NCBI RefSeq assembly: GCF_009914755.1
Contig: NC_060928.1
Length of the DNA: 64,000 nucleotides
Direction: 5' to 3' (one strand)
DNA from: the human T2T-CHM13v2.0 reference genome, Homo sapiens
The notes beneath the pieces were generated by a model. The model searched no databases and had not been told where the DNA came from. It saw only the letters and a list, made by a program, of their open reading frames with translations. A program made the translations under genes and the position numbers. How positions within the stretch are numbered: position 1 is the first letter of the stretch; every line of letters starts with the position of its first letter. This document shows, in pieces, positions 6,360-36,536 of the stretch.

Positions 6360-7520
<1,161 letters not shown>

Positions 7521-9690: not shown

Positions 9691-9812
9691 GTCGATGTTC
9701 CTTAGGATGACGCACTTTCCATTGGTGTACAGAAAATTGTTGCCCTTAGGGTCGCCGCCGATGATCTTGGAGACGCCCCTCTCCACCTGCGGGAGGCTGG
9801 CGAACACCTTCT
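9691..9812 (-). CDS. WDR1: WDR1 coding exon 2 (122 nt), (K)[40 protein letters not shown]
   Basis: Acceptor ctccgcag| at 9813-9820 and donor |gtgagt at 9685-9690. The peptide matches the known WDR1 N-terminus. Exon 3 lies outside the window, left of base 1. Confidence 0.97.
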
Positions 9813-10228
9813 CTGCGGAGACACAAATGCGGCGGGGCATGTCAGGGCAGGGCGGGGACGGCGGGGACAGAAGGGAGAAGGAGCCCCGGACCGGTCTCGG
9901 CCGGTCACCTGTTGACTGCGCCGGGAGGGCGGCCTCCACTTTCCACGAGCGCCAGGAACCGCGCGACTTCCTGGTCCGCGCCCCGGGCCAGGCCCTTGGG
10001 GGCAGCGGGGCTCCTCCGGCTCGGCCCACGGCGCCAACTTGGGGGCGCACCCCCCGTCGGGGGTCCCGCCCTGCACCACCGAGGGCGGCCCCGCCACGCC
10101 TCCGGCCGGCGCCCGCACCCCTCCCCCGCGCCGAGGACTCCCCCGCCACCCGCACGGCGCCTAGGGGCCGGGGACCGGGGCCGGGGCAGCGCGGCGGCCG
10201 CTCGGGGGCCCCGCGCCGCGGCACTTAC

Positions 10229-10244
10229 TGATCTCGTACGGCAT
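10229..10244 (-). CDS. WDR1: WDR1 (AIP1, actin-interacting protein 1) coding exon 1, encodes MPYEI plus the first base of K
   Basis: Minus strand reads gcgaggATGCCGTACGAGATCA|gtaagt: A at Kozak -3 and a canonical GT donor at 10228. The 16 nt join in frame to exon 2 to give [18 protein letters not shown]. Confidence 0.97.
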
Positions 10245-10487
10245 CCTCGCCCACTTGTTACCGCGCCGCGCTCGCCGAGAGCCTCCGGGGCCGGCCCGCG
10301 CTGCGAATTACACCTCGCCGAGGCCGAGCCCGGGGACTGGAGCCGGAAGGCGGCACCGGGCGTGCCGGGAGTGGAGTGGGCGGTCCGAGGCCGGGGCTCA
10401 GAGGCCAGCTCGCGCCTGCCCTGCGCGCTGTGGTTGCGGACGCCCCGAACCCGGAAGCGCGGTCCCGCGCGCGGCTCGCCCCCAGCT

Positions 10488-10505
10488 TTGACCATATATA
10501 GTCAA
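10488..10505 (-). promoter_or_regulatory. TATA-like / CArG-like element inside an 18-bp near-palindrome; WDR1 TSS expected around 10460-10470
   Basis: ttgacCATATATAgtcaa. The minus strand reads CTATATATGG, one mismatch from the SRF CArG box CC(A/T)6GG. It is a short AT island within the CpG island, ~250 nt upstream of the ATG. Confidence 0.6.
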
Positions 10506-10604
10506 GCGCTCGGCTCGGCGGCTGCGGTCCCGGCGAGCCTGCGCGGACCTGGCGCTCCCCTCCCCCGCCGGCCCCGGCCCCGCCCCCGCCTTGCTCGCCC
10601 CGCC

Positions 10605-10617
10605 CCGGAAGTGACGT
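10605..10617 (+). promoter_or_regulatory. Composite ETS-CRE motif CCGGAAGTGACGT (GABPA + CREB type)
   Basis: Exact overlapping ETS core CCGGAAGT and half-CRE TGACGT, as found in housekeeping and bidirectional CpG promoters. Confidence 0.7.
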
Positions 10618-10910
10618 ATAGCACGCCCCGCGGGCCCTTGAAAAGGCGGCGCAGACGAGCAGCCGCGTCAGAATGCTTCTGGGAGTTGGGGGGTGGGTTC
10701 CTTTCTGTTGCTAGCTTGTAGGAGAAGCTGGGCTGTAGGAAGTTTATTTGCGGGGGGGTCTTAAAGACGCTGAAAGTACTGGCGGGCTTTGGTGGGGGTC
10801 TGGAAAAACCTCTCTGTACCTGTGACCGCGTTGCGTGGCGGGCGCTCCCCGGCCTCTCCTTTTTGACCGGTCCCGGGCGTTGCCCAGCCGCCAGTCCTCC
10901 TGCTCGGGTT

Positions 10911-12120
10911 TTGTAAGCAGGAGAGGGATGCTTTTTACGTCTTCTTAAAGTACGGTTAAGTGCCCTTGCTTGAAGTAGTTGCTGGCAACAAGAACGTAGG
11001 GGTTACTCTTTGTTGGGCCTGAACTCGTGCTTTTTCTCTCAAAAGTTGAGCTTTTGAAAGGCAAAAAAGGCGTGGGGGATGGGGGAGCTGTCGGTCTTAA
11101 GGAAGTTAAAGGTTATTTCCTAAGCAAAACAAGTCTCACTCCTAAAACCAGGGTAGTGGCTCAGTTGTGGCGGGAGAGCAGGGGCTGTAAAGTGTCCAAG
11201 TTTCTAGTCTCATCTTTCAGTAGGATGGGTACAAGCTTTCCCCTTGGGGCTCTGGGGGCTGGGAGGGTTGTAAAAGTGGGAGAAAGCAAAGTATTTGGCG
11301 GGGTGCGGGCGGGTAGCTGAATGTTGTTGTAAGTGGAAGAGGAATGCTGTTGGCGTCCTTCTCTAAGCACGGTTAAGTGCTTTTTCTTGAAGTAGTTGCT
11401 GGCAACAGGAACGTAAGGGTTACTCTTTGTTAGGCCTGAACTCGTGCTTTTTCTCAAAAGTTTAGCTTTTGAAAGGCAAAAGTGGGGGTGGGGGCGCTGC
11501 TGCTTTTAAGGAAGTTAAAGGTTATTTCCTAAGAAAGCAAAACAAGCCCCACTTTTAAAACCCGGGTAGTGGGTCAGCTGGAGAGCAGGCGCTGTGAAGT
11601 GTACAAGTTTCTAGTCTCATCTTTCAGTAGAATGGGTACAAGCTTTCCCTCGGGGCTCTGGGGGTGGGAGGGTTGTAAAAGTGGGAGAAAGCAAAGTACG
11701 TGGGTGGGGGGTAGCTAAATGTTGTTGTAAGCGGGAGATGGATGCTTTTGGCGTCTTTTTTTAAGCACGGTTAACTGCCCTTGAAGTAGTTGCTGGCAAC
11801 AACGTAGGGGTTACTCTGCTGGGCCTGAACTTGTGCTGTTTCTCTCTCTCAAAACTTAAGCTTTTTAAGACGCAAAGGCGTGGGGAGAGGGGTAGGGGAA
11901 CTGCTACTTCTAAGGACGTTAAGGGTTACTTCAGAGCAAAACAAGCCCCACTTCTAAAACCAGGGCAGTGGCTCAGTTGTGGAAGGGAGAGCAGGGAATG
12001 TGAAGTGTCCAAGCTTCTAGTCTCGTCTTTCAGTAGCGTGGGTACAAGCTTTCCATTGGGGCTCTGGGGGCTAGGAGGGTGGTAAAAGTGGGAGAAACCA
12101 AAGTACTTGCGGGTAGCTAA
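10911..12120. repeat. Three tandem diverged copies of a ~400-bp unit (10911-11326, 11327-11724, 11725-12120)
   Basis: Each copy starts ttgtaag and shares acggttaa, gaagtagttgctggcaac, gggtacaagctttcc, taaaagtgggagaaa and gggtagct. Confidence 0.95.
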
Positions 12121-13359
12121 AAACTCTGAAACCCACGCTGTGAGCGGTTCCTGCTTCTCTGAAAGGTCTGTTCTGCTTAAGGTTGTATCAAGGTTAGTCT
12201 CTTGCTACCTACTTCCGTAGAGCAGTCTCTCGTGGCTCACCTGGGTTAGTGGCCATGTTGCCTGTCTCCTATTCTTCCTAACCTTGTGTGTTCTCCAGGT
12301 AGCTGAGTGATCCATCCGAAGTAAAATATTCCTGAGCTTGTCTGTAGGGGCTCCAAGTTTCATGAAGTAAAAGCTAGTCTTGAAAACGGCCCATTAGGGT
12401 CCTGGATGACAGTCTCCGGGTCACTTAGACTCCGTTGTCCGCCTCCCCTCATCTGTATCATCTTTGCCTTGGGTACTGGCTTCGGAGGGTGTTTTCCTGA
12501 AACTCTTACCTGAGATCTACTTAGCTGACTCCTGTGTCCTTCAGAAGTACTTAATTGCTCAAATGTCAGTTGATGAGTGTCACCGGTCTCATTTTAAATT
12601 GCAACTTCAACTCCTTGCAAACACTGCTTCTCATTCCCGCGTTCCCTAACTTTAACTCTCAGGAATAACCCTGACACCTGGAAGATGCTCCTAGGGATGA
12701 CCCCACTCCCCACCCACAACTGTTAATCAGGAAATAACGGATATGAAAGTAGCTCTGCGAACTGAGGAGCCGTGGAGAATGTACAAAACAGATTCCTAAA
12801 GTAAGATACGCAGGCCCGGCTTGTAGGCCGCTGCATCTGCTTTGATAACTTAGAACTCATCAAATCACCTTGAGACCCTTAAAACAAATGGTATAATTGC
12901 ATTCACAGGTAGTGCATTCGTGTAACAAGATTAAGAAAACGAAGGACCAACTTCAAGCTCTTGCAAGCTGGTAACCTTTACACTCGTGCATAAAGCCTTG
13001 CTGGAGTTGACACTGAAAACTAAACAGTCGAACTTGAGTAAAACATATCCAAACTCCCAGCTGCTGGGCTCTACAGCTTATTTTTAGCTTGAAAGTTACA
13101 TGTTGGAGCTGCAGAGGCTTTATGGTGGTGGTGGGGGAGCTGTTTGTTCGTAGTCACTTGAGTCTATATGAACGTGGCAGGAAATCTGAAGGATTTGAAA
13201 GGAAAATGGGAAACACCGGGGTGTTCCAGGATTTTCCCTGTGGGGCGAGCTCAGTTTGGTGTTGTCAGCTGTGGGAGCTTTAACACTTGAACCGTCTTTA
13301 CTGTGGGTCTAGCCTATTCGTTGGGCTCCCCTAGTCACCACTCATGCCTTCGTGTATCC

Positions 13360-13780
13360 TGTTGTGTTGGGCCCCCACTGAATTAAATAGGGATGGCACC
13401 ATGTTCGAGAAGCCGAGGCGACCCAGAGCCAATGAACACATATGGTGTATGGAGGGGACTTGAATACAGAGTGGTCCAGAGCAGCCAGCTGGGACAGAAC
13501 TGCGCTTCAAAAAGCAGTTGATACAGATCAGGTACACCTACACTCCCAAGGTGTGGCTAAGCCGCTATCAGGTGTCAAGCGTGTAAGAGTCACTGCCAGG
13601 ATATACTTGAGTTGCTTTCAGCTGTCATAACTCTAATAGGATGGGGATCCTGAGGTCTGCATACACCAGTGGTTCACATCTCTGAGGACCCAGCTACTTC
13701 GCTGGCCCTTTCTGGAACCTGTCTACTTGGAGCTCCGTAGGAAGGGTCTGAAAGGCCCCTTACTCGCACTGAACGACAGC
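13360..13780 (-). mobile_element. Probable ERVL-class solo LTR remnant (LTR47-like)
   Basis: tgttgtgttgggcccc...atagggatggcaccatgttcgagaagccga...gacccagagcca resembles the reverse-complemented U5 end of this LTR group. The right boundary is uncertain. Confidence 0.4.
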
Positions 13781-16700
13781 CAGAATAAGACTAATTTGCC
13801 TTCCCCTTCCCTGCTGATTTCTCTGGGGTGCTGCTTCCGATAGTGACCAGCGTCCTTGCATCTCCAGCTGCACTGACCAGAAATCTCACCCCCCACTTAG
13901 GTTAAAGCCTTCACTAAATCTAGTTGCTTAGAACCTCTGTATCAAATCTTTCTGTAGCCACAGCCCTGCTTTGGTGCTCTTTAACCTGGGTTATTCTAAT
14001 TTCTTCCTGACCAGTTAATCTGTATCTGCTTGGAGCCCCTTACTGCAGCCAGAGAAACTTTAAAAGCTTGTTGAGCCTTGGGTAGCCTAGGTTTCTATCT
14101 TGAGACCGAACATCCTCCCTGGGCTTCTGAGACACTGGCATGCTGAGGCTCTGCCTGGCTCAAGGAGCAAGTCTCCTGGGTCATTCTGTTGTGGCACCTG
14201 TCTCTGGGTCTTCACTGATGCCTCAGTTTAAGGCCAATCCACCCTCAAGCTATACTCCCATTTTGTTGCACACTGGTTTGCTTATGACTATGGGGTTCAT
14301 CAGCGTCTCGACTCTCCCCTTTTTAGGGATTGAGAGCAGGGACCTTGTTGCTCGAGCACTTGTTGCAGGGGCCCACCCAGACAATTGGAAACAGAACGCA
14401 GGTGTGCCAGATCTATGAACACCTGCGTGCTTTTCAGACAGTGGCAATTCTTCCTTTTGCTGTGTGAGCGAGCAACATAAGTATCACCTGAACTTAATTC
14501 TAAAGTGGCAACAATGTGTTCTTGAAACTTCTAAGCAGCAGCAGCTTAGGATACTTAACTCTTCGACTACCTTTGGGGTAAACTAGCTCCAATTGGGTAA
14601 CTTGGGCAAACCGCTAACTGGCGTCAGGTGCTAAATGAGCTGTTTAACAGCTTTCCACTCAGGGGAAAACAAGTTTGGAGTGGGTTCCGAACGCTTTATG
14701 TAACGCAAACAGTGGGGGCGTGTGGATTCCTGGAATGCACCTTGTCCTCTGAGCACGCTGAGTCCTGGCTTCTAGAGCCACAAACTGCAAATACGTCAGA
14801 TGTGTGAGGCCTATACTGGAAGCTTTGGGGAGGAACAAAGCCACAGGAGAGCTGAATTTCTCTCCAAAGCCTGTCAAGCTGCTTCCTCACTTTCAACCCT
14901 CATGGGTTCTGTCCAGGCTCAGGAAAAGGGGGCTTTCTCTTTCCTGTTGCTTCAACTGTATCAACCCCCTAGGAAGAGCCCTATGCAAGGGTAGCGCTGC
15001 TCCCGTCTAGCTCACCCTGTGGACTGAACCCCCGCCCTTTCCACAAAGGACTGTTGGGTATAGTGGGGGAAGCCTTTCTGCTCCAGGAATTTCAGTCCCT
15101 TTTGCAGGCCTGTCCCTGTCTCATAAATAAGCTCAAGTCATACTCAAAGTTTCATCTCCGGAGTGTCCCTGGAGTAAATCACCTTTATCTACTACCTCAA
15201 GCCAGTCTCGCTGCCTCCACCTCCCCATCTGCACAGGGAGTTGGAGTGATTGCCAGTGAGTCCTCTAGAGGGTCTGACACATGGTGGGAAGTGGCTGCCC
15301 ACAGCCTGAGTTAATGTGTAACGCTTTTGGCTATGCTGTCAGGCTTTCAGATCTTTAATTCTCAAATCTCACTGGTTGGATCGAGTCCATAGTCCGTTAC
15401 TAGCTGTGACTAGGGAGGGTGGTGAAATGCATGGCAAAAGCAGCTACTGGTATCCACCTTTTGACCTGGAAAAATCCGGGTTGTGGGGCCTGGGCTGTCC
15501 CTCCAAAGTGAACTGGAAACCGGGCTACCTTGCCAGAAGTGCTTGGATGCCTTTGTCAGAGGACTGGTAACAAAGCCTTTAACCTGCTAGCATAAACCTT
15601 ATGCAAAAGGGGTTAGTCCGGTTAATTCTGCCAAGGCAAGAAATGAGTTATCTGCAACCCTCCAGTGAACTCGTTTACTGAATCCCTTCTTGGGGGGCCC
15701 TATGTGTTGTAAATACCTTTCTTTCCAGTTGAGCAGCCCATTGGAAAGTGGGTTTTGCAAATAAGCAAATAACTAACACCTGCATGCTGCAGCAGCTTTA
15801 AATCCCTGCAAGTCATGGAAGCTTGGGCATAACTTTTCAGTTTGAGGTTACTGAAGGATGTACTTCTAAACAGCTAATCAACGGCATAACTTCAGTAACA
15901 CAGTACAAGGAATATATCCTACTTGGGTTGTCTACCCTTGTTTCTTAACCATAGCTTCAGGCAACGAAAGCTATCTGATCATCTTCAAGATCCCGGTGAA
16001 GGGGGTGGTAACTGGGTGGAGTTGAGCCTCCACACTGGAGGACCTAAGGCCGTGTCTTGCACTGCTTCGAAGCTCCTGTAGCTGCAAAAGAACTCTGGGG
16101 ACAGTTAAACAATTCCCCTGTCTCATTCTTTCTTCTTAAACTCCCATAAGTGATAGAACACAGTCGCTTCTGTCTACCTGCTGCCTGAGACTTGGTGTGT
16201 TGCTGTGAGGCCTGGTGACAGCCCCGGCCTGTCCTTTCCCGGGACCCTTCCTGGAACGTTTACTTACCCTCATACTTGCAAGCACTTCGTGTGAGCTAGA
16301 TGCTGGGTTTGTGGGCCCTTGCCCTTCATCTTACATCAGGGAAGGGAACTTGGGTTGGAACTTTGCCGAGTTGAAAAGCAAGTGATGCAACCAGGAGTTA
16401 AACAGGTTGGGTCTACAGAGTCTAAACTGTCCTTTACACGTGAAAGGGCTGAAATGGATAGATCAGATATGGAAGTTTTAATTGTGCCCCTAAATAACCA
16501 ACTTTTCCAGTGAAGGTAGAATCTTAGCATGCTCTCACCCAAGTTCAAGGATAGCGTCAGTCGCTCTCCAGTTGAAAGCTTTGTCTTTGGGTAACTACTT
16601 ACCGTCCTAGGGTTTCTGCCTTTTCCTTCTGACTCAGTCCACAGTGCCTGGGTCTTTGCTGGCCTCCAGTTGTGTGGTCAGAGCTAACGTGTTTGGCTGT

Positions 16701-17514
16701 TGAGCACCGGTGTCTGGCTTGTTTTGTGCCCACAGTGCAGGGGCTTGGCTACGTGGTCACTGGGCATCCTGTGGTGCTGTGGGGGTCTGGTCTGAGCGCT
16801 GTGCCAGTGCCTGTTGCTGATATGGAGATTCCGGTCATGAGGCTGTTCGCTGCAGCGAGTCTCCTTGTACAGACCCTGTGGTGTGGCCTTCTTGCCCATT
16901 GGCCTGAGGGCTTGGGTCCTTCCTCTGCTCCATGAGCATAGAAACTCTAGATCTCAACACCCTGTGTTTGAGTGTTCAAGACTGTTAAACAGAACTGGAT
17001 CCCAGCCCTCTTTTCCAGGAGTGCTGAGGATCTTTGAGCCCTGACACAGCCACAAATCCATCACAGCTCCTGCCAGCACCTCCCAATGCTGCCCCTGGTT
17101 CCTTGGCGGTGGCCTCCGGCCATTTCCAAACACTTCTGCTATTAGCTGCCTTTATAGTCGGCTTCCCTCAACACGTGGACCAAAGGGTCAGCTTTTCTGC
17201 GAAACAGGATGGATATAGATTGTTAGTGGAGGAGGGCTCTTGTATTTGTTGCCATGGAGACAGTGACCAGCTGGATGCCCTGCCTCTCCGTTCTCATGCC
17301 TCCCTGTGGGGGAGGGGGGGAATCGCACTGCGGATGGGCCTAGGGAACTTGGACATGTGTCATTCAGCCCTTTGCTCCTTTGACTCAGGCTCTGCCTGCC
17401 TGTGGTAAACAGGTGCTCTGATCTGCTCCCTCCAAGTGGGTGGTGTTTCTGGGTAGACATTGCCCATCCCAGCAGTGGGGATCTGGTAGTTGAGATCTGC
17501 ATGTGGCTGGGAAG

Positions 17515-17930
17515 CTGTACTGCTCTGCTAGGGCTGGCATAACAAACTGCTATGAACTTGGTGGTTTCAACGGAAATTCTTTTCTGGAAGCCAGGAAATC
17601 TGAGATCAAGAGGTGGGGTGTGGTTGGCTCCTTGCCAGGCTGTGAAGACTGTTTCAGGCCTCTAGCTTCTGATGGTCTGCTGGCATCTCTGCTCCTTGGC
17701 CTGTGGGACCACCACCCCATCCCTGTTTTCATCCTTAATGTCTTCTCCCTGTGCCTGTTTCCGCTTCCCTGTTTAAAGGACACTGGTCCTATGGGAGTAG
17801 GGCCCACTTTGAGTTTTACTTCATCTTAATTGCAGCAGCAGGCCACCCTGTCTCTAAACAAGGTCACACACTGAGAAAATACTTCACTGTAGGGGCTGAG
17901 TTTCATCTATATTGAAGGTAGGGCTTGCCC
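17515..17930 (-). mobile_element. MLT1 (MaLR) LTR
   Basis: ctagggctggcataacaaa...gaagccaggaaatctgagatcaag...taaaggacactggtc...ctaaacaaggtcacacactgag are diagnostic MLT1 motifs in reverse orientation. Confidence 0.75.
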
Positions 17931-19499
17931 TGTCATCCTCCCACCCGTAAAGCCCCAACCACCAGCCTCTCAGCGCCTTGGGGACAAGGCAGAGGCGGTT
18001 GAGTTGCGGTGACCCACCTTGTTGACAGTGGCAGTGGTCACACTGTAAAGTGTTGCCACCCATTCTGGGGCACCAGCCCTTGGGGAAACTGGACTTAAGG
18101 CACAACCTGGATCAAGAGGCTAGGTGCCTGCACTATATCTGCCTGGCAAAGGAATCACTGAGGAAGTGACTGAAAAGTGCTTCCCTATCTCTGCCCCTGG
18201 TTTTGGCTTTCATCCTAAAATGCTCTAATGAAGCGGCCTAAAACACATGGCTGCCTTAGAAAACAACCACTGGAGCATTTGAGGAGTTGGCATCTCCCCC
18301 CTGCCTTTGGGGACCGTGGGACCAGTTTCTTAGCTCGGCTGCTGTGGCCATAAAAGTACTCCTGCTTCTAGGCATGACCCGGAGGATGGTGGTGGCCACA
18401 AAGCAACCAGGAGTGGGTGCTGTCTCAATGTCCCTGGCTTGGGCCCTAGGTCTAGACAAGGACCTCGGTCCACTTTGTTCCGGTCTGGGAGGGTTCCAGT
18501 CATTCCCGATGGCATTGCTGGGATTGGACAGGAAGTCCCTACCATACACAGGCAACTCAGGTTCATGTAGAAGGAGGCTCCTCAATAAGGGAAAACATCA
18601 AAGGGGGAAGTTTTAGATGAATGAGCTCAGACTCCGATGAAGCTGATAGACCGAGTAGCACGACACATTCTGGAATATCTGGCAACTGGCATGGACTCCG
18701 TAAAAGGATTTTAATTTTTGTCTGCTTTTCGAGGTACATTTAGGCACAGCTGTTAAATTGGTAGTTATGTCCTATTGGGAAAGATGCTGCAGTTGTGGCC
18801 ACAGTGGAGGCTTCTACACACGTGGGACACGGGGGACCCTGAGAGACTTGGCCCTGCTGCAGATTAAAGATGACCGAGGCAGTATAGTGTCGGCAGGTCA
18901 GCCACATACCTAGTGCTTGCCTGGCATACTGGATGTTACATGATTTTCAATCTCATCTTAGGTAGTACGGGAAAGTGGTCTCTAATTTGTTCCCCATATG
19001 ATTTGTAGGAATGGTCTTAAAATGCTGGGTGGTGAAATCAACGTTGTGTTCCTTGTAATATTTGAAACCTGGAAACTGCAAGTGCTCAGTCATAAGAGCT
19101 GATGTCAGCCACTGGGTGTCTATTTGGTTCACAAAGCTTACTTCAGCCCTCCCAAATGTTCTCCCACTCCACATCAATACCCAGCTTCAAAAGGAGCCTC
19201 CAAGCAAAGTGTTTTTGGGTATCAACCTTGACCGTGGAGGAATTGTGAAGCCAACGTAGCAAGATACCTTGATCATGTGGACTATCACAACCTGTGGGAT
19301 TGTGAACATCTAGAGTCATGTATGCACCTCACATGTCTACCGAACACCAAAGGGTCAGACACGAATGCAGTATTCTGGAGCTTGGTGCCTAGTCACTTAT
19401 TCCCCCTCTGTAATACAAATTGTTGGTGCGTTATAAGGATAAAACGCAGGCTCTTAAGGCCTGGTCATATTAGAAGTGCTCGAATGTCATGTACATGTT

Positions 19500-20050
19500 A
19501 GGTGGCTGGAGGTACTATGGAAAATAGGAACATGTTATCTCTTCTGTGTGAAGGTCAGGGAGGCTCTTGTAGGACTCTAAAGTTGATATGTGAAGGATGT
19601 GAAGAGCATAGAGTAGTATGTGATATGCTTGGCAAAGGAATGGAGTCTCCCTGAATACCCGTGTGGAATGGAAGTAGGGCTGGGAAATTAGAGCCAGGGC
19701 GAGTGGCTGGGGCTGCTTCATGGAGGTTCCCCAATGACCTCATGATCAGATGCCATCAGGATGTGTCAAGCGTGATGTGGATCAGATTGACTTGTTGGGG
19801 TCACTACTCCCTGTGGAGGGTGGGGTTAAATGGACCAGCCTGGGACACTGGAGTTGGGCCATTGTGAGTGGTGGCCTACGGAGGATTGGAGGGTAGCAAG
19901 CCTGACATGTGCAGGCAGGGGACACACGCAGCATTGTCCTGGATGTCAGAGGAAAGGAGCCCAGGGATGATGAAGCTATGGTTTGGACAATACAGTGGGT
20001 GGTGGGTGATGCCAGTCACTTAAAAGTGAAGGCAAGCAGCAAGGGATCTG
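19500..20050 (-). mobile_element. Degenerate L2 fragment
   Basis: Purine-rich L2-like motifs: gaaggtcagggaggc, gaggaaaggagcccagggatga, gatgccagtcactta. Confidence 0.4.
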
Positions 20051-20961
20051 ACTGCCTCCTTTGCATGCACTATTAGAATTGATCCTTCTATATCAGCAAT
20101 CTCGTAGTCCCAGAAGCCCTACCCCACTGTACGGTGAAACACCTGGGTGTGTAGCTGGTGGCTTCAGGTAATACTTAAGTTGTAACTTTCCCAAACCCTT
20201 TGCATGTTAAACAGTGATGCTCTCAACTTACATGCAAGTTGGATCATTGTTTTGAGAAAGCTTTGCGGTCAAGTCGTTCCTCAACAGATACATTGTATTT
20301 CAAGTTCCTCTGTTAGAATCACAAGTATTGAGAATGTGGGTTTATGGTCATCATGCTGTTAGCTTGCGGATATCAAGGTGATGGCATTATCAGGTGTACT
20401 ACACTGGGATCTGTCATGCTAACGACTCAGCAGCTAGACCACTTCTACTTGAGTTGTCACAAGGTGGGCCCTGATTGTCTCCTTGGAACCATGTCCTGTG
20501 TCTCCTGCTTTTTCCCACTCAGCACAAACATCCTGGATTTAGGATGCACAACTAACTTATAGCTATCTTTAATTGCACAGGAATAAAAACTCCTGTGAGG
20601 TCCTCATCTTAATGTTGAGGCATTAGTCCCGAAGTTAGTTCCCACAGTGCTGTATCTGACTAGGTAGCAAACAGATTTCCTCTGGCTTGAGGATGAGTTC
20701 TAAGTTACGTGTTTTGTGTTAAAGGGAAATTGGCTGAACTAACAGGGCTAGGATAGTACACAAATTCTAGTGTTGGTAAATTAGGTCTAGGCTTAAGGTG
20801 GCGGGTATCTTGGCCATAAAGATACAAATTTCCATTCTATAACAAAATCACTAACATGATCAAAAATGGTTTGACAGGATACCAAATAGAACACTTGAGG
20901 GTAGCGACTCTTGATAATCAACTGCTGCTTGAAGTCACTTATGCACGCAGTCTTTGAGATT

Positions 20962-21889
20962 TGAAGGGGCGGGGTTGCCCCTCCACATCCGTGGGTGTTT
21001 CTCGTTAGGTGGAACGAGAGACTTGGGGGGAAAAAGAGAAAGTATAGAGAAATAAGGGGACCCAGGGAACCAGCGTTCAGCATATGGAGGATCCTGCCAG
21101 CCTGAGTTCCCTTAGTATTTATTGATCATTTTTGGGTGTTTCTCAGGGGGTTGTGGCAGGGTCATAGGATAATAGTGGAGAGAAGGTCAGCATATAAACA
21201 CATGAACAAAAGTCTGCATCATAGACAAGGTAAAGAATTAAGTGCTGTGCTTTGGATATGCATACACATAAACATCTCAATGCCTTACAGAGCAGTATTG
21301 TTGCCCGCATGTCCGACCTCCAGCCCTAAGGCGGTTTTCCCCTATCAGTAGATGGAACATACAATCGGGTTTTATACCGAGACATTCCATTGCCCAGGGA
21401 CGGGCAGGAGACAGATGCCTTCCTCTTGTCTCAACTGCAAAGAGGCATGCCTTCCTCTTATACTAATCCTCCTCAGCACAGACCCTTTATAGGTGTCGGG
21501 CTGGGGGACAGTCAGGTCTTTCCCTTCCCTCGAGGCCATATTTCAGACTCTCACAGGGGGAGAAACCTTGGACAATACCTGGCTTTCCTAGGCAGAGGTC
21601 CCTGCGTCCTTCCGCAGTGTTTGTGTACCTGGGTACTTGAGATTAGGGAGTGGTGATGACTCTTAACAAGCATGCTGCCTTCAAGCATCTGTTTAACAAA
21701 GCATATCTTGCACCGTCCTTAATCCATTTAACCCTGAGTTGACACAGCACATGTCTCAGAGCACGGGGTTGGGGGTAAGGTTATAGATTAACAGCATCTC
21801 AAGGCAGAAAAATGTCTTAGTACAGAACAAAATGGAGTCTCCTATGTCTACTTTCTACACAAAGTAACAATCTGATCTTTTTCCCCACA
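20962..21889 (-). mobile_element. HERV-K (HML-2) solo LTR5 (older LTR5_Hs/LTR5B type), 928 bp
   Basis: Minus strand runs TGTGGGGAAAA...GGGGCAACCCCGCCCCTTCA, with TATAAAA (~21370-21376), AATAAA (21118-21123) and the characteristic LTR5 U3 sequence. TSD is imperfect (agatt/aaatt). Confidence 0.95.
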
Positions 21890-22609
21890 AAATTTAAGTA
21901 GACTTGGCCTTGTCATTCTGTCCTTTGGAGCTGATCTGGAACAAGCTTTTAATCTAGTCTTGCAGATGGAAAAGCTCTTTACCCAGATGCACACAGGGCA
22001 TAAATGTGGGTGAGTCTTGGACCTATGAGTAAAAAGACACCAAGGTATCAATCGCTGTAGCTTTGCTCGACACCTGAGTCTACCTCACTTACAAAAACGG
22101 ACAATTTGGCAGGACTGGCTTTTGAGACTCGGAGACAGATCAAGATGCTTTGCAAAGGGAATGTGTTCTCCAGTCGTGGGACAAAACGTGTCTATTAAAT
22201 TCTTACTACGTCGTAGGTATTACAGTACCCAAATACCCAAGATGTCTCGGCTGAAAGGCCAAGGTGGACTTAAGACCGAGGAATACCATGTGCCCAAGTC
22301 CATGGTCACAACTATTCTGTGTAGAGAATCATGGCCTAGTGCAAGATCGACCTCATATCCCTGAGTTAAGGCACTGACTACTTGTGGGGAGATGAAAAGG
22401 TGGTAATCTTGAACCAACTTGAGAATGGGGGTAAGCTCAGATGCAAGTGTGTGCTTCCCCTACCCGTTATGACTTGGAAGGACTTAGCAGAAGTGGCATT
22501 TGGAGCTCTTACATTGAGTGAAGGGATGGAAAAAACCCTTCCCTGGTAGGGGAAGTATGCAGACCACAGGTGGAACAGATTACTGCTCTGCAGGTACAAG
22601 TGTGCAAGC

Positions 22610-23022
22610 CCAGTAATTGGGGTTCTCCAGAGGGAGAAAGATACACTATAGTTTTTTGTAAGACCTTGTGGTCATGTAAGTTAGTACTTAATAGGGTGTC
22701 TGCAAGCTGAGGAGCAAGGAGAGCCAGTCAGATAGCTCTGAAACCCTGCAGAAAACTGAAGAACTTGGAGTCCAGTGTTCGAGGGCAGGAAGCATCCAGC
22801 ACAGCACAATGATATAGTCTGGGAGGCTAGGCCAGTCTCCTTTTCACGTTTTTCTGCCTGCTTTTTATATTAGCTGGCAGCTGATGAGTGTGCCCACCGG
22901 ATGTGAAGGGTGGATGTTCCTTCCCCAGCCCACTGACTCATGTTCTTTGGGCAACATCCTCAGACACACCCAGGATCAATATTTTGTATCCTTCAATCAA
23001 GTTGACACTCAGTACCATCACA
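22610..23022 (-). mobile_element. MLT2A (HERV-L) solo LTR
   Basis: tctgcaagctgaggagcaaggagagccagtc...actgaagaacttggagtcc...caagttgacactcagtaccatcaca matches the reverse complement of MLT2A. Confidence 0.85.
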
Positions 23023-25089
23023 CCCAGTGAGTCACAGTGCCGGGGGCTATCGGAGGGGACTTACTAGAGAGGGCTGGCCGTCAAAGCATACCCCACAGGG
23101 TTTGGTGGGGGGATGCGATTGGGGCCTTCAAGACTAGACAAGGTATTACAGCTCTTCCTGACCGTGTCCTTGGGAAGCCTTTGAGACCTCTTGGCAGGGA
23201 AAGTTCACCCAGAGACTATTGCTTAAAGGTTTGGCTCATATGTCATTCAGTCCCACAGATGGGCAGAGAGCTTGGGGAATGCTTGTTCTCCTAGGACATC
23301 CAGCTGGCAGCTGTGCTATGTGGTCTATGCAGATGGAGCAGCAGGGATCAGGGGTCACTGCTAGTGAATTGCATCTGCAGGAAAACTAAGTCCTGAGTCC
23401 AAGAGGGGATGGCCTCTGTTCTGCCATGGTGACTGCCAAGCTCAAGTTGGCAGATAACAGGGACTTCTCTGGAGAATTGTAGGCATAACTTCTAGTGCTT
23501 CTCGGGCTAATTCTAAGTACTTCGGTTGAGTGACTCCGTGCTGGGCAGCCACTGTGATTCCAGTGTAGAGATGAGGAAACTGGCCAGTGTCAGACCAGTC
23601 CGGGTATTATAAGACTTGACACTGGCTGAGTGCTTCACTTCTGTAAAACCGTAGATCCTACGTGGAAAAGATGACTGAATTGCTGCATTTAAAACCACAA
23701 GTCCAAGAGTATTTAAGAACTTGAACCCTTAACTTCAGGAAGTCTTATTTTACTTAGATCTTCTCAGTTCGTTTATTGAATCATAGCTCTCTACTTCGTG
23801 TGAAGATCAAATCTCTGCCAAACTTGATAATCACAGTTCATTTTAGACAGCCTAGCTGTTTATGGCATTTTAGATGCTGACATTTCTCAGCACAACTGTG
23901 CTGGCTTTTGAGACTAGATTAAGCTGCTTTCTGATTGACCGACAGGACAAGCTGTTTCTGGATGTGTTTTGGAAATCTGGTGCCAGAGTCTGGATGGTGT
24001 GTACTCGGCCCTAGGAAAAGCTGCTCTGTTTCAGTTATGGGGAAATCATTCAGGGATGTTAGGGTGAACGGATAACTACTCACCTCTTCCATGTGGGTGG
24101 ACTGTTCACCCACCCTTCTGGAGCGGGGGGAGCCATGTTGACCTTGGACTTTGCCCTCTTAATCCTCATGGTTCTCATCACTAGGAAGTAAAGGCTAGCC
24201 TGGGTAGTGAAGCCACAGTTCGTACCTGTCCTAGTTTCTGTCGTGGCGTTGGGTCTGCGTGGCTGCCCTGAAATGGTGCCCTGCAGTGTACTTCCTCACG
24301 TGCACTCACCTGAGTGGAGCTTCCTGTGCTTGTGTTGGAGGGCTGGTGCCTCATCTCCCTCCCCTTGAGGTCTTGATGGGGAGAACCTGGCTGAAATTTC
24401 CAGCTGGCAGAGGCGTCCTACTTGGCCACCACAGGCAGTTTTTATGATCTATCGCAGCAGGAGGCCAATATGTTGGGAGAAGGAAGCCTCCTGGGCTGGT
24501 TAGGGTAGTGTCTAAGTCTGTTTTAGCAGATGTGGGCTGCAAAACTCTTGTGGCTGAGTTGGCTGAAGGTGTCACCTGTTAAAGCCATGATGGGCTCTCC
24601 CCAACAGCTGGAGTACTAAACATTGCTCTGCTGGAGGCTGCTCGGGTCCAAGGCTGCAGCTGGACTCAAAGGGGTTCCTTAGGTGTTAAAGCAAACTTAG
24701 ACTGGTCCAAATCTTCTGTCTCAGCAGACCTCAGAATTTCAGCCAAGAGCTGCTTCTCTGGGTTCTAAAGAGGCTTTAGTGGGAGGAGGCAGGGAAGCCA
24801 GGACCCACCCGGAGCCTGGTGCAGAGAAGGAGCCACACTGAGCAGTGTAGAGACCTGAGGAGCCATGCTGCCCTTAGGCTGCAGTTGTGTTTGGGAGGGG
24901 CAGTTTTAGACTTGATAAGAGGGCACGAGTGGGCACAGGAGCCCAGCGTGGCTGCAGGGTGACCTGGAATTGGGCAGGGCACAGGTGGGCGCGGGAATGC
25001 AGTATGACTGCAGGGGTTGACCTCTCTCAGGGTGCCAGGAGTGCAGTGTGGCTGCAGGGTGACATCCAGGAGCGTGCTCAGGAGACTGA

Positions 25090-25352
25090 CCCCAGTGACT
25101 GACGTGGACTCTCCCCAGTGACTGACGTGGACTCTCCCCAGTGACTGACGTGGACTCTCCCCAGTGACTGACGTGGACTCTCCCCAGTGACTGACGTGGA
25201 CTCTCCCCAGTGACTGACGTGGACTCTCCCCAGTGACTGACGTGGACTCTCCCCAGTGACTGACGTGGACTCTCCCCAGTGACTGACGTGGACTCTCCCC
25301 AGTGACTGACGTGGACTCTCCCCAGTGACTGACGTGGACTCTCCCCAGTGAC
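25090..25352. repeat. Perfect minisatellite, 23-bp unit ccccagtgactgacgtggactct, ~11.4 copies
   Basis: Directly visible. Produces the repetitive ORFs at 24776-25410. Confidence 0.98.
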
Positions 25353-28099
25353 GGCATTTACCTAGAGAATCTGCTCCGATATAAGGCTGGCTAATTTCTG
25401 GATGGTGCACTCTGAGCAGGTTGAATCTGTAAACTTCACTCTTGAGCCTTGGCCTAGTGAATCTGGGACTTTTGGGTGTTCTCTCCTGTCCAGCACAGAA
25501 CAGTGAGGGGAGCTGACTTGGTTGTCACAGGACCCTACTTGTCATCCTGAGCAGCCACTATTTGATTCCCTTCTATGTCTGAGTATACATAGACCCTGCC
25601 TGTCACTAAGACTCCACCACACAGGGATGCTGGGCTGCTGATCAGCTGGTTACAGGAATCAGTAGGCTTTTGGGGGGCAGTGGTTGTGGAATTAAAAGAA
25701 CAGGGCTTTGCTGGGCCTTTCTCCATGTAATCCATACAGAGACGTTTGAACCTCCAGAATGGGGTCTTGGGGGGGGCTCAATGAGACCAAGTCTGACCCT
25801 CACCCCCCATCCTGTGAGTCAGACCAGGAAGGACCTTTAGTGACAGACTCCAGTAGTTTATCCCATAAACATAGGGTTGCTGCTATTGGGAGAAATCCTT
25901 GAATGTCCTCAGTGTGAACAGCCTTCAGTAGTAAGCACTCATCCCGCGACATCCTAGGGGATGCAGACGGAGAAAAAAGGAACATGGGAGAATGTGGGAT
26001 GGAGCTGCCTTGGGGGACAAACTCCAAAGGCCAGGACTGCAGGACCATCTGGAATGGTCCCATCCCTTCAGAGATGGTTATCCAGTGTGAAGATCCTTAT
26101 GGAAAAGCTGTCTGCTCTCCTATTCTGAGGGAAAACCTGAGTCCCACCCAAAAAACTCTCCCCATGCAACACGTGGTAAACGTGAGTGAGCCCTCACCAG
26201 CACCCTCACTGGAGGGCAACATGGAAGGCAAGCCACGTGGGATGCCCTCTTTCAGTTTGGACTCAGTAGATCGTGCTGGGGTTTAACGTGTTCACCTCTT
26301 GTTTGCTGTAAGTTGGATTAGATTTAGTTCTTCCTGCATGATGGCAGTGAAGATCGCATTAGATCGATTGCCTCTGAAAGCTATGCCCCACTGGGAGGCA
26401 ATCTTCATCCTTCATGGCCCCTTAGATGGGCTAAGAATCCTCACATTCAGCGTGCCGCACTCGCTCTGCAGCAGGTTGTACAGAAGGCAGGAACAAAGCT
26501 GGGACTCTGGGAGTTGGATGTGGGCAGCCTTGGGACTTAGTGGTCAGGTCTGTGAGTAAGGGGACAGTGGTTGTGCTGGTAAGAGTAAGGCAGAGCTCCA
26601 TTGCTGTGCTTTAAGCTCCAATTCTTTGCCAGTGCTTTGCAAGACTATCTCAAATGTCAGTTAAGGCTGCTGGAAGGAGATGGTCTAGGAGAGGTGTGGG
26701 GATGGACACAAGGTGGCCTTGGAAGAGCAGGGACCTGCCCCAGCTTTCCTTCTTACTCAGGATACATGGTTTGTCTGCCAGTATCCTTGTTCCAAATGTG
26801 ACCCGATGTTTGCAAGTCCAAAGAAGTGGTGGGAAGACAAGAGATCCAGAAACACAAATGAGTCCAGCTGCAGGCATCTGGATCCCACCAGCTTGAAAGG
26901 CTTGAGTGAAATGTTCAGCCTCTGAACTGTCATCCTCCTTGAAGACCTTGGGTGGAAGGAGAGCCCCAGACAGTACTTAGGGCCCTGAGGACACCACAGC
27001 CAGGCAGAGCCAGTGGGGAGCAGTCAGTTCAGCACAGAAGTGGCCAGGACCACCGACACCTCTAACAAGGTTAGAATTTGGACCGCGATGGGACGAGCTC
27101 AACTGGAGTCTTGCCCTGGGAGAGCTGGGGCACCTGGGCAAGAGGGGCAAGCTGCTGCCTTCCCATTTCACTTAGGAAATGCCTCCACCCACCCCCATCC
27201 ATGCCCTCTGGAGTCTTAGTGTTCGGGTAGGCTCTGTGCTGAGCCCGCCTACCCTCATGTGAGTTGGTGACTGAGACTGAGCTGATGCCAAGCTGTGCCC
27301 TTACCAGGCCTCACATGGGAACGTGTTCTGGAATTGAGGAACATAATTGCTGGAAAACCTGGACTTCTGGCCTACTGTGGCAATGAGGGCCTGAGGCAGG
27401 TGGACACGGGGGCTCTCTAGGCAGGGCAGCTGCTAGCAAAGGGATGCAGTGGTGGGGGGTACCACCAAGGGGCAGGACCTGTGTTCCTGAAAGGGACTTC
27501 ACTTTTCGGAGTTACTAAACTTGAAAAACGGGTGCTAGGTCTGCTCAGTTCTGGGGTGTAATGGGATATATTTCCCCATGGAATGATATGCTAGTGAACA
27601 TGTTATGTAGAACCAAGACATTCCTGGTAACCTGGCGGAACATGGACAAGACTAAGATGTCCTATGTGACCCTGATCTCACTGGCAGTACATAACTGGGA
27701 ATATCACACCAGGACGAGTCCGGCACTCAGCCCATTGTGGGAGGGGATGACTGTCCTGTGGGGTGCTCAGGCCTGGTTGGTAGCCTTGCTGCCCCCATTT
27801 GTGAAACACATAGGCTGGAGTTCTGAAGCTAAGCGGGGGTTCTTGCTCACTTCCTGTGGAATCCTGATGGGTGAATGTAGCGTGGGCGTGGGCTTGTAGA
27901 CCTTCAGGGCTTCCTGAACCTGCCTGGGAAAGGGATAAGTGATAAGCTCTGTTATCTTTTGGTGTACTGCCTGATGTCTTGGAGTGACAGTCCATGACCG
28001 ATGACGTGGTGGTTTGATAACCAAGAAGGGTATCTTTGGGTGGTGCTGGCCAGCTGTCTGGGGTTGGGAGTGCTGGGGGCATCATGGCAGGTCTTGGGG

Positions 28100-28375
28100 G
28101 TAGCATCCCAAGTGATGTAGCATCCCAAGTGATGTAGCATCCCAAGTGATGTAGCATCCCAAGTGATGTAGCATCCCAAGTGATGTAGCATCCCAAGTGA
28201 TGTAGCATCCCAAGTGATGTAGCATCCCAAGTGATGTAGCATCCCAAGTGATGTAGCATCCCAAGTGATGTAGCATCCCAAGTGATGTAGCATCCCAAGT
28301 GATGTAGCATCCCAAGTGATGTAGCATCCCAAGTGATGTAGCATCCCAAGTGATGTAGCATCCCAAGTGATGTAG
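28100..28375. repeat. Perfect minisatellite, 17-bp unit gtagcatcccaagtgat, ~16.2 copies
   Basis: Directly visible. Produces the repetitive ORFs at 27678-28458. Confidence 0.98.
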
Positions 28376-31300: not shown

Positions 31301-31654
31301 GCCTGAACTCCTTTTGACTACGTTGAGCCTATACTCACTTTCAGATAGTCAAAGCTGTTCCTGCAGGTACTTTTCCCTGCTGGCTGTGACAGGGTCCTCT
31401 TGTCTGGCTCTGTACTTCCTGGGCAGTGGCTTGCCCTGTTCATCTTTGGCTCTTGAGAATGGTTTACTTACGGGTTGGTTCAACCTTTTTCTAGTCAAGA
31501 GGGGGATGAATTCTAAGCTCTACAAATATCAGACAGTAACCCTCGTCTGGAAAATTTCCTGCTGATCACATCCCGGTGGGTTTCCTCTTCAGCCGCGTCA
31601 TCACCAAGTAGGTGAGCTGCGTTTTCCAAAGTATTATACTCAAATGAACCTAAA

Positions 31655-32125
31655 CAAAACATTTCTATTTCAACCATGTTGAATTTTATAATCGGTGGCA
31701 TTAATCGCATTTACAATGTTGTGCACCTATCACTTGAACTAGTTCTTCACCCCACCAAAAACTGCAACCACTAAGCAGTAATGTTTTCCTTCTCCCTTCA
31801 CCCCCAGTCACCTCCAATCTACTAGCTCTATAAATCTGCCTACTCTACATATTTCATAAGATTATAATCATCTGTCTGGTTTTTATCAGTTTCCATCCAC
31901 GTTGTTGCGTATCACAGCTTTTGATTAACAATCCTTTGCATGGAGATGTCAGTTTCTTCTTGGTATTGACGTTGGGTTGGCTTCCGTGTTCTGGCTGTCA
32001 TGAATAGCGTTGCAGTGAACATTGGGCATATGAAGGTGTTTGCTTCAATCCCTGTTTGCAATTATCTTGGGTAAAAGTGGAACTGTTGGATCATATGGTA
32101 ATTCTTAGGTTTTTGAGGTACTGCT
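31655..32125 (-). mobile_element. Old L1 (L1M/L1MB-type) 3' end fragment
   Basis: catttacaatgttgtgca, ctccaatctact, ctgcctactctacatatttcata, ggctgtcatgaatagcgttgcagtgaacatt and ggatcatatggtaattc match an L1M 3'UTR/ORF2 end in reverse. Confidence 0.8.
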
Positions 32126-33352: not shown

Positions 33353-33513
33353 TCCAGCCTCCCTGCGCGTCTCCAGCCTCCCTGCGCGTCTCCAGCCTCC
33401 CTGCGCGTCTCCAGCCTCCCTGCGCGTCTCCAGCCTCCCTGCGCGTCTCCAGCCTCCCTGCGCGTCTCCAGCCTCCCTGCGCGTCTCCAGCCTCCCTGCG
33501 CGTCTCCAGCCTC
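33353..33513. repeat. Perfect CpG-containing minisatellite, 19-bp unit tccagcctccctgcgcgtc, ~8.5 copies
   Basis: Directly visible. Absent from the paralogous position (~49660-49690). Confidence 0.98.
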
Positions 33514-36124: not shown

Positions 36125-36536
36125 TATACTAGTCAGGGTTTCCTAGAGGAACAGAATAGGATGGATACACACATATAAAGGGGAGTTTATTAACTTACAC
36201 AACCATAAGATCCCCAATAGGCTGTCTGCAAGCTTGAGGAGCAGAGCCAGTCCAAGTCTCAACTGAAGAACTTAGTCCGATGTTTGAGAGGTTAGGAAGC
36301 ATCCAGCATGGGACAAAGATGTAGGCTGGGGGTCTAGGTCAGTCTCACCGTTTCATTTTTCCTGCCTGCTTTATATTTGCTGGCAGCTGATTAGATTGTG
36401 CCCAACAGATGAGAAGGGTTGGGTCTGGTTTTCGCAGCCCACTGACTCAAATTTTTATCTGGCAACACCCTCACAGATATACTCAGGAACAATAGTTTGC
36501 CTCCTTCAAGTTGACACTTCAGTGTTAACCACCACA
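36125..36536 (-). mobile_element. MLT2A (HERV-L) solo LTR
   Basis: tatactagtcagggtttcctagagg...aataggctgtctgcaagc...caagttgacacttcagtgttaaccaccaca is an essentially complete MLT2A in reverse. Confidence 0.88.

What the first reader, a model, noticed from the sequence alone, without database searches (positions are those of the whole stretch)
10911..12120. Triplicated ~400-bp module with MYB and RFX motifs directly behind the WDR1 promoter
All three copies keep CGGTTA (= TAACCG, MYB consensus YAACNG) at 10953, 11370 and 11768, and copy 3 has an overlapping double site cggttaactg. All three keep the palindromic X-box-like GTTGCTGGCAAC (10978, 11395, 11789). Copies 1 and 3 add CAGTTG (11162, 11974). 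These motifs are unchanged while neighbouring bases diverge. A-MYB and RFX2 are established spermatocyte/spermatid regulators. The array may therefore be an amplified meiotic promoter or enhancer grafted onto a housekeeping CpG island.
Basis: partly seen in the sequence, partly recalled or inferred. Interest (0 to 1): 0.8.

Follow-up and report, generated by a model that had tools for sequence, protein, structure and literature searches.

The report
Old triplication at piRNA precursor start
The three-copy 400-base repeat next to the WDR1 promoter is real and sits in the first 1.6 kb of a known, very productive germline piRNA precursor, but its MYB and RFX motifs are kept no better than chance would allow.

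Summary
The array is real. It spans 10911-12120, with a ~407-bp unit in 2.9 copies that are 85-89% identical, and it is unique to this locus in the genome. Every motif lies at the stated coordinate.

The claim that the motifs are specially conserved does not hold:
- 23% of all 6-mer windows are invariant among the copies.
- The X-box lies in the longest invariant run (21 nt), with P 0.05-0.55 depending on the null.
- CGGTTA (= TAACCG) fails the MYB consensus YAAC(G/T)G.
- Canonical MYB sites number 3 against 2.3 expected, and none is kept in all three copies.

This side of the WDR1 promoter starts a documented divergent piRNA precursor. In testis it is the pachytene gene 4-p16-5577, a single 72.8-kb exon. 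In human oocytes it is the top piRNA cluster.

By that annotation the array is transcribed, at about +360 to +1570. It most likely arose as an old neutral duplication of promoter-flank DNA. A germline enhancer role through its X-box-like sites stays open and testable. The germline guess is partly right; the motif argument is not.

The parts
10911..11326 (+). Repeat copy 1 (416 bp)
   Evidence: TRF; alignment; nhmmer E 1.1e-143
11327..11724 (+). Repeat copy 2 (398 bp); 89% identical to copy 1
11725..12120 (+). Repeat copy 3 (396 bp, lacks the last ~6-16 bases of the unit); 85% identical to copies 1 and 2
10978..10989 (.). X-box-like 12-nt palindrome GTTGCTGGCAAC, copy 1 (also 11395-11406 and 11789-11800). 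It matches 11 of 12 positions of the recalled RFX consensus with zero spacer and lies inside the 21-nt invariant block starting at 10969, 11386 and 11780.
11002..11007 (-). Third RFX half-site GTTACT, 12 nt (copies 1, 2) or 9 nt (copy 3) after the palindrome; kept in all copies (also 11419-11424, 11810-11815)
10953..10958 (-). CGGTTA (= TAACCG), kept in all copies (also 11370, 11768). It fits only the loose YAACNG, not YAAC(G/T)G.
   Evidence: consensus as quoted in PMC2797782
11162..11167 (-). Canonical MYB-type site CAGTTG in copy 1 (also 11974-11979 in copy 3; copy 2 has CAGCTG). A further canonical TAACTG lies at 11772-11777 in copy 3 only.
11246..11267 (+). G-quadruplex motif on the sense strand in copy 1 (also 11652-11672 in copy 2; degraded in copy 3). 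The array has + strand GC skew of +0.2 to +0.4.
9800..10910 (.). CpG island (GC 0.73, CpG o/e 0.94) holding the WDR1 TSS (10377, minus strand, hub table) and the inferred piRNA-precursor TSS near 10550 (plus strand). It also holds TATATA at 10495 and two CCGGAAG sites.
   Evidence: plus a recalled hg19 coordinate for the mapping
10550..64000 (+). Part of piRNA precursor gene 4-p16-5577.1 lying in the window (hg19 chr4:10118745-10191565, single exon of 72,820 nt, class Pachytene); it runs on beyond the window
   Evidence: Supplementary Data 4 of PMC7782496; the oocyte cluster chr4:10115601-10391984 (+) covers the same stretch

Best explanation
The array is an old, locus-unique, three-copy tandem duplication of about 407 bp, made in two steps: copy 3 split first, then copies 1 and 2. 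It lies in the CpG-island shore 0.53-1.74 kb from the WDR1 start site.

That is the side from which a long unspliced germline piRNA precursor is transcribed divergently. In testis this is the pachytene gene 4-p16-5577. In oocytes it is cluster piC-ZNF518B-WDR1. The published annotation puts the precursor's start about 170 bp from the WDR1 start. The array is therefore transcribed, at roughly +360 to +1570 of the precursor, and is not an upstream element of the germline unit.

Most likely unequal exchange duplicated a piece of promoter-flank DNA, and the copies have since drifted at about the neutral rate. Any activity is that of ordinary promoter-proximal DNA (the hub table marks enhancer features in copies 2 and 3). 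Each copy carries one X-box-like palindrome plus a neighbouring half-site, the only motifs with any hint of better-than-average retention.

Shown here: the array, its uniqueness, the motif positions, the lack of excess conservation or MYB enrichment, and the published piRNA gene. Inferred: the mapping of the piRNA start onto the window, the age, and neutrality.
For: Array and uniqueness. Genome-wide, the unit matches only its own three copies. The 21-nt invariant block is exact only in those three copies; 3 other places match with 2 mismatches, where I calculate about 2.7 by chance.

Divergence: Kimura distances at non-CpG sites are 0.099 (copies 1-2) and 0.125-0.138 (copy 3 against the others). 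The copies are not being homogenised.

No special conservation.

No MYB enrichment: YAACNG 8 against 4.65 expected (P 0.08); YAAC(G/T)G 3 against 2.26 (P 0.39); YAACGG 0. The equally long flank 12121-13330 has 4 canonical sites.

X-box-like sites at up to 1 mismatch: 11 in 64 kb against 12.3 +/- 3.9 expected, and none perfect.

piRNA gene and cluster.

CpG o/e is 0.44-0.46 in the array and 0.37-0.51 out to about 13.5 kb, against 0.11-0.29 in the rest of the cluster body. This is an ordinary island shore.
Against: RFX half-sites are kept in all three copies at 3 of 4 positions, where 23% would be expected for a 6-mer. The palindrome also lies in the longest invariant run. This hints at constraint and is nominally significant only under the laxer null.

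The hub table lists RefSeq enhancer features at 11609-11708 and 11793-11882 inside the array, so the DNA is not inert in reporter-type assays.

The core promoter between the two start sites has no canonical MYB site. If A-MYB acts here directly, the array holds the nearest candidates.

Three copies give very little power, so constraint cannot be excluded. Placing the piRNA start on the window rests on an hg19 coordinate of the WDR1 start that I recalled and did not get from a tool.
Confidence: 0.55

Rival explanations
1. The triplication multiplied a germline cis-regulatory module: one RFX palindrome plus a half-site per copy, with MYB sites in copies 1 and 3. This module acts as a downstream enhancer. 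In spermatocytes (A-MYB, RFX2 or RFX4), and perhaps in oocytes, it turns the upstream-antisense transcription of the WDR1 CpG island into productive synthesis of the piRNA precursor.
For: The locus does start a pachytene and oocyte piRNA precursor. A-MYB plus RFX4 has been proposed for mammalian piRNA clusters, with RFX sites dispersed rather than central (PMC4408798). RFX2 is described as an A-MYB target in spermatocytes (PMC2797782). RFX half-sites are retained at 3 of 4 positions, and the palindrome lies in the longest invariant block. There is no canonical MYB site in 10378-10910, so the array holds the nearest ones. The hub table lists enhancer features inside the array.
Against: CGGTTA fails YAAC(G/T)G. 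Canonical MYB sites are at chance level and none is shared by all copies. X-box-like sites occur at the chance rate and none is perfect. Human piRNA clusters showed no significant RFX4 motif enrichment (1.04-fold, P 0.45). About half of human piRNA gene promoters are reported as not bound by A-MYB (passage in PMC9808571). In hamster, A-Myb is barely expressed in ovary and not detected in MII oocytes, and no common motif was found at oocyte cluster starts (PMC7969018). In rhesus the nearest TCFL5 peak is 43,713 bp from the WDR1 start (Table S3 of PMC9808571).
Confidence: 0.22
2. The array acts at the RNA or nascent-transcript level. It forms a G-rich 5' leader on the sense strand, with G-quadruplex motifs in copies 1 and 2. 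This could favour R-loops that keep the promoter flank unmethylated. Alternatively, quadruplex-binding helicases of the piRNA pathway could recognise it and help route the transcript into processing.
For: The + strand GC skew of +0.2 to +0.4 is confined to the array and drops to about 0 right after it. Two of the 11 + strand G4 motifs in the 64-kb window lie in the array. The array is inside the annotated precursor. The link between G-quadruplexes and piRNA precursor processing is recalled knowledge, not checked here.
Against: There is no conserved RNA secondary structure. Fold z-scores are +0.24, -2.81 and +0.81 for the three copies, and the covariation term is unfavourable (+4.25). The G4 motif is already degraded in copy 3. 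The array shows no enrichment of U1-type sites and no depletion of poly(A) signals. Nothing ties this leader to processing.
Confidence: 0.08
3. The array is a copy-number-variable repeat whose dosage tunes somatic WDR1 expression, and it could underlie the disease association at this promoter.
For: It has head-to-tail structure next to a promoter. The hub table lists enhancer features inside it. An atrial-fibrillation sentinel variant is listed at hg19 chr4:10118745 and assigned to WDR1 (table in PMC11759492).
Against: The copies differ by 11-15%, so recurrent unequal exchange and homogenisation are not evident. A search for WDR1 with VNTR found 20 papers, and none of the 15 listed deals with this array. 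I had no population data.
Confidence: 0.05

Closest known systems
Divergent mRNA/piRNA promoters of pachytene piRNA genes (A-MYB type; e.g. mouse 10-qB4-6488.1 paired with Ddx50, as described in PMC7782496)
   Same: A protein-coding gene and a long unspliced piRNA precursor are transcribed in opposite directions from a shared promoter a few hundred bases wide. For WDR1 this is stated for marmoset and human testis, and the precursor is annotated as one 72.8-kb exon.
   Different: The promoter here is a housekeeping CpG island with no canonical MYB site between or just beside the two starts. A-MYB occupancy is unknown to me. A triplicated 400-bp module fills the first 1.6 kb of the precursor, and none of the passages I read mentions it.
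[quoted passage not shown]
   Same: Same genomic interval and strand. The published interval covers the array.
   Different: Those papers describe piRNA output and transposon content. In the passages I read, PMC13111593 does not use the words promoter or transcription start at all. The driver of oocyte clusters is stated to be unknown in hamster.
RFX X-box (recalled consensus GTNRCC, 0-3 spacer bases, RGYAAC; X-boxes of pachytene genes in PMC2797782)
   Same: Two inverted half-sites form a perfect 12-nt palindrome, with a further half-site 12 nt (copies 1, 2) or 9 nt (copy 3) away, in each copy.
   Different: It has a zero spacer and one mismatch in the left half. Sites of this quality occur about once per 5 kb by chance. 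There are no binding data. The block can also be read as a single NFI-type half-site (recalled).
Promoter-proximal minisatellites or VNTRs that modulate transcription (recalled class)
   Same: Head-to-tail repeats beside a promoter, with regulatory features annotated inside.
   Different: The unit is very long (about 407 bp), there are only three copies, and they have diverged 11-15% with no sign of homogenisation. Polymorphism is unknown.

Membership tests
Divergent pachytene piRNA/mRNA promoter (A-MYB type) | An mRNA and a piRNA precursor transcribed divergently from a shared promoter region | tested here: met
   Stated for WDR1 in marmoset and human testis. The hg19 annotation has 4-p16-5577.1 starting at chr4:10118745 on the + strand. 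The roughly 170-bp distance to the WDR1 start uses a recalled hg19 coordinate.
Divergent pachytene piRNA/mRNA promoter (A-MYB type) | Long first exon or unspliced precursor | tested here: met
   Annotated as a single exon of 72,820 nt. 5' splice-site-like GT[AG]AG is depleted on the + strand of 12121-64000 (90 against 123.9 expected, z -3.0) but not on the - strand (100 against 107.0, z -0.7).
Divergent pachytene piRNA/mRNA promoter (A-MYB type) | Canonical MYB site(s) at the promoter centre | tested here: not met
   There are 0 YAAC(G/T)G matches in 10378-10910. The nearest is at 11162, about +610 from the inferred start.
Divergent pachytene piRNA/mRNA promoter (A-MYB type) | A-MYB occupancy in spermatocytes | not testable with these tools
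   The paper with human A-MYB ChIP-seq (PMC6961462) is not held. About half of human piRNA gene promoters are reported as unbound.
MYB binding site | Match to YAAC(G/T)G (consensus as quoted in PMC2797782) | tested here: not met
   The conserved CGGTTA reads TAACCG, with C at the fifth position. Only CAGTTG (copies 1 and 3) and TAACTG (copy 3) match, and none is present in all copies.
RFX X-box | Two inverted half-sites GTNRCC / RGYAAC with 0-3 spacer bases (recalled consensus) | tested here: inconclusive
   It matches 11 of 12 positions with zero spacer in all three copies. Sites of this quality number 11 against 12.3 expected in 64 kb.
RFX X-box | Binding by an RFX protein | not testable with these tools
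   No ChIP or in vitro binding data were available.
Homogenised minisatellite / VNTR | High identity between neighbouring units and variable copy number | tested here: not met
   Identity is 85-89% and Kimura distance 0.12-0.17. Copy-number variation was not testable.
Interspersed repeat (transposon-derived) | Related copies elsewhere in the genome | tested here: not met
   The genome-wide DNA search returns only the three array copies. The tool warns that its counts are lower bounds.
Structured non-coding RNA | Rfam match, or stable and covarying structure | tested here: not met
   There is no Rfam match in the array at E<=1. Fold z-scores are +0.24, -2.81 and +0.81. Only 2 of 111 predicted pairs show a compensatory change, and the covariation term is +4.25.

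The most novel reading that the evidence does not exclude
The triplicated module is the germline switch of this locus. Three X-box palindromes, with MYB sites gained in copies 1 and 3, would recruit RFX-family dimers, and A-MYB in males, just downstream of the shared CpG-island promoter. This would convert short upstream-antisense transcription of a housekeeping gene into the 70-300-kb precursor that supplies about a third of the uniquely mapped piRNAs of human oocytes. It would be the first defined cis-element for an oocyte piRNA cluster in a non-murine mammal.
Probability: 0.15. Interest if true: 0.75.

Novelty: new member of a known kind. Interest (0 to 1): 0.4.

Why it matters
Most mammals, including humans, make abundant oocyte piRNAs. 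What drives transcription of the oocyte clusters is unknown; the hamster study found no common motif at cluster starts and said so.

This window holds the 5' end of the single most productive human oocyte cluster, which gives 34% of uniquely mapped piRNAs. In testis the same locus is a pachytene piRNA gene. A discrete, locus-unique, triplicated module at that 5' end is a concrete object to delete, mutate or overlay with germline ChIP, ATAC and CAGE data.

If it proves inert, the report still matters. It shows that motif-based arguments from three paralogous copies have almost no statistical power. It also shows that the gene table gave no hint of the main function of this intergenic stretch.

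Tried and rejected
- Structured RNA: rejected. There is no Rfam hit in the array, fold z-scores are +0.24, -2.81 and +0.81, and there is no covariation support.
- Coding potential: there is no ATG ORF of 40 aa or more inside the array on either strand.
- Transposon origin or further copies: none were found in the window at E<=10 or in the genome.
- MYB enrichment: rejected.
- X-box rarity: rejected.
- U1-site enrichment or poly(A)-signal depletion in the array, as a device for productive elongation: not seen.
- piRNA sequences from the array: a search of the 10 supplementary files of PMC13111593 for two array motifs found none. Those files may simply not list sequences.
- Human A-MYB binding at this promoter: the source paper is not held. 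Its supplements could settle the point.
- TCFL5: the rhesus table puts the nearest peak 43,713 bp from the WDR1 start.
- Earlier findings of this scan were not open to the session.
- Orthologous primate or other mammalian sequence could not be fetched with any tool, so copy number across species and per-site constraint remain untested.
- Searches for the array in print: WDR1 with VNTR, WDR1 with piRNA cluster or piRNA, ZNF518B with piRNA, and 4-p16-5577, piC-ZNF518B-WDR1 or WDR1 promoter. No listing or passage that I read mentions a tandem repeat here. Supplements and subscription papers were not covered.

Full report
**1. The observation**

The stretch 10911-12120 is a head-to-tail array.
- Tandem Repeats Finder reports 10911-12106, period 407, 2.9 copies, 79% matches and 9% indels, score 1409.
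- Repeat families in register show spacings of 395-417 bp.
- I cut the copies at 10911-11326, 11327-11724 and 11725-12120. Aligned, they are 89% (1-2), 85% (1-3) and 85% (2-3) identical, and 299 of 429 columns are invariant.
- A profile built from the three copies finds only those three in the 64-kb window at E<=10.
- A DNA search of the window's own 3.1-Gb genome with copy 2 returns only the three copies.
- The 21-nt invariant block is exact only in those three places. Three further places match with 2 mismatches; I calculate about 2.7 expected by chance.

**2. Are the motifs kept better than chance?**

They are not, or at least this cannot be shown.
- Among the three copies, 23% of all 6-base windows and 4.8% of all 12-base windows are fully invariant.
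- The X-box-like palindrome lies in the longest invariant run (21 nt). Runs that long appear in 5% of shuffles of all columns and in 55% of shuffles restricted to ungapped columns.
- The motifs were chosen after looking at the sequence, which weakens even the 5%.
- The MYB consensus quoted in PMC2797782 (passage) is YAAC(G/T)G. CGGTTA reads TAACCG on the other strand and fails it at the fifth base.
- Against 300 dinucleotide-preserving shuffles, the array has 8 YAACNG matches against 4.65 expected (P 0.08), 3 YAAC(G/T)G against 2.26 (P 0.39), and no YAACGG.
- The neighbouring 1210 bases (12121-13330) have 4 canonical sites.
- The copies are not independent. Of the 5 alignment positions with any loose MYB match, one is shared by all copies. 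Of the 2 canonical positions, none is.
- RFX half-sites fare better: 3 of 4 positions are shared by all copies.
- An X-box-like site (recalled consensus, spacer 0-3, up to one mismatch) occurs 11 times in the window against 12.3 +/- 3.9 expected. That is about one per 5 kb, and none is perfect.

So the ancestral unit carrying one such site is unremarkable, and its retention is only mildly suggestive.

**3. What surrounds it**

- WDR1 starts at 10377 on the minus strand (hub table). It lies inside a CpG island (9800-10910: GC 0.73, CpG o/e 0.94).
- The array begins where the island ends. Its GC is 0.47-0.49 and its CpG o/e 0.44-0.46, the same as the next 1.4 kb and about twice the 0.11-0.29 of the rest of the window. 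This is an ordinary island shore.
- The array is G-rich on the + strand (skew +0.2 to +0.4).
- It holds two G-quadruplex motifs, in copies 1 and 2.
- It has no ORF of 40 aa or more, no Rfam match and no conserved RNA fold.

**4. The context the gene table did not show**

Full-text searches led to five papers, of which I read passages.
- Marmoset testis: a unidirectional piRNA cluster and WDR1 mRNA are transcribed bidirectionally, and the authors suggest a single factor of the MYB family may drive both (PMC4105748).
- Oocytes of 11 mammals: piC-ZNF518B-WDR1 is one of two syntenic clusters giving a substantial share of piRNAs in most species (PMC10964541).
- Hamster: there is a female-specific cluster between Wdr1 and Znf518b (PMC8437802).
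- Human oocytes: the cluster between WDR1 and ZNF518B is the most productive. It gives 34.05% of uniquely mapped piRNAs and is transcribed in one direction (PMC13111593). It is listed as chr4:10115601-10391984, + strand (Supplementary Data 9). The coordinates are hg19 and the clustering radius is 2.5 kb, so its start is coarse.
- Supplementary Data 4 of PMC7782496 (BED12, hg19) lists the human gene 4-p16-5577.1 at chr4:10118745-10191565, + strand, one exon of 72,820 nt, class Pachytene.

**5. Placing the piRNA start on the window**

I recall, from no tool, that the hg19 WDR1 start is chr4:10,118,573. With window 10377 as that base, the piRNA gene starts near window 10550. That is about 170 bp from the WDR1 start and inside the island. 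The array then spans about +360 to +1570 of the precursor.

Two things fit this placement.
- A GWAS table assigns chr4:10118745 to WDR1 (PMC11759492).
- The papers speak of a shared promoter region.

The oocyte interval starts upstream of the array under any reading. I put about 0.85 on the array being transcribed as part of the precursor.

From sequence alone, the + strand of 12121-64000 is depleted of 5' splice-site-like GT[AG]AG (90 against 123.9 expected, z -3.0), whereas the - strand is not (100 against 107.0, z -0.7). This fits an unspliced sense transcript.

**6. How it most likely works**

The non-CpG Kimura distances are 0.099 (copies 1-2) and 0.125-0.138 (copy 3 against the others). 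They imply two duplication steps.

If I assume 1e-9 substitutions per site per year in each copy, the steps date to about 50 and 65 million years ago. Rates between 2.2e-9 and 0.6e-9 give a range of roughly 25-100 million years. This is inference, and gene conversion would make the copies look younger.

The copies are not being homogenised, and there is no measurable excess conservation. The simplest reading is therefore an old neutral duplication of promoter-flank DNA that is now the transcribed 5' part of the piRNA precursor. Its activity would be ordinary promoter-proximal activity; the hub table marks enhancers at 11609-11708 and 11793-11882.

I give this reading 0.55.

**7. The rivals**

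In its favour:
- the retained RFX half-sites;
- the lack of any canonical MYB site in 10378-10910, which makes the array the nearest source of such sites.

Against it:
- the motif statistics above;
- the non-significant RFX4 enrichment in human clusters (1.04-fold, P 0.45);
- the near absence of A-Myb expression in hamster ovary and its non-detection in MII oocytes, with no common motif at oocyte cluster starts;
- the rhesus TCFL5 table, which places the nearest peak 43,713 bp from the WDR1 start.

*RNA-level role of the G-rich leader (0.08).*

*Copy-number-variable regulator of somatic WDR1 (0.05).*

Both are possible but have little support.

**8. Comparison with what is known, and novelty**

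The locus works like the known divergent mRNA/piRNA promoters. It meets two of that class's defining features (divergent pair, long unspliced precursor) and fails one (a central canonical MYB site). The fourth, A-MYB occupancy, could not be tested.

The piRNA cluster itself is already known. None of the listings or passages I saw mentions the triplicated module at its 5' end. Supplements that I did not open, and subscription papers, may do so.

I rate the finding a new member of a known kind, with interest 0.4. It is not surprising in itself. It does give a concrete, deletable candidate element at the start of the most productive human oocyte piRNA cluster, for which no driver is known.

Noticed in passing
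window 25090-25352, 28100-28375, 33353-33513, 38824-38985: Four short-unit minisatellites lie inside the piRNA precursor body. Three are perfectly homogeneous: a 23-mer x11.4, a 17-mer x16.2 and a 19-mer x8.5, all 100% matches with no indels. The fourth is a 23-mer x7.0 at 96%. Such perfect arrays in a piRNA precursor would yield repeated identical small RNAs.
   Followed up: no
window 10495-10500 and 10605-10618: A TATATA element lies inside the CpG island between the WDR1 start and the inferred piRNA start (0.02 expected in shuffles). An ETS-type CCGGAAG site lies directly next to a TGACGTA half-CRE.
   Followed up: partly
about window 10549-10550 (hg19 chr4:10118745; mapping uses a recalled coordinate): The atrial-fibrillation GWAS sentinel rs3822259, assigned to WDR1, is listed at the same hg19 number as the BED start of piRNA gene 4-p16-5577.1. 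It therefore lies in the shared bidirectional promoter.
   Followed up: partly
window 12121-64000, + strand against - strand: 5' splice-site-like GT[AG]AG is depleted on the sense (+) strand (90 against 123.9 expected, z -3.0) but not on the - strand (100 against 107.0, z -0.7). This fits a long unspliced precursor.
   Followed up: partly
window 9334-9462, - strand: A 5S rRNA-like sequence lies in WDR1 intron 1, just above the Rfam gathering score (39.1 against 38 bits). It matches the annotated pseudogene RNA5SP155.
   Followed up: no
window about 7405 (hg19 chr4:10115601): The published oocyte cluster interval starts about 3 kb inside WDR1, upstream of the testis start site and next to a RefSeq enhancer feature (6901-7401, hub table). 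With a 2.5-kb clustering radius this may be noise, or it may point to a separate oocyte start site.
   Followed up: partly
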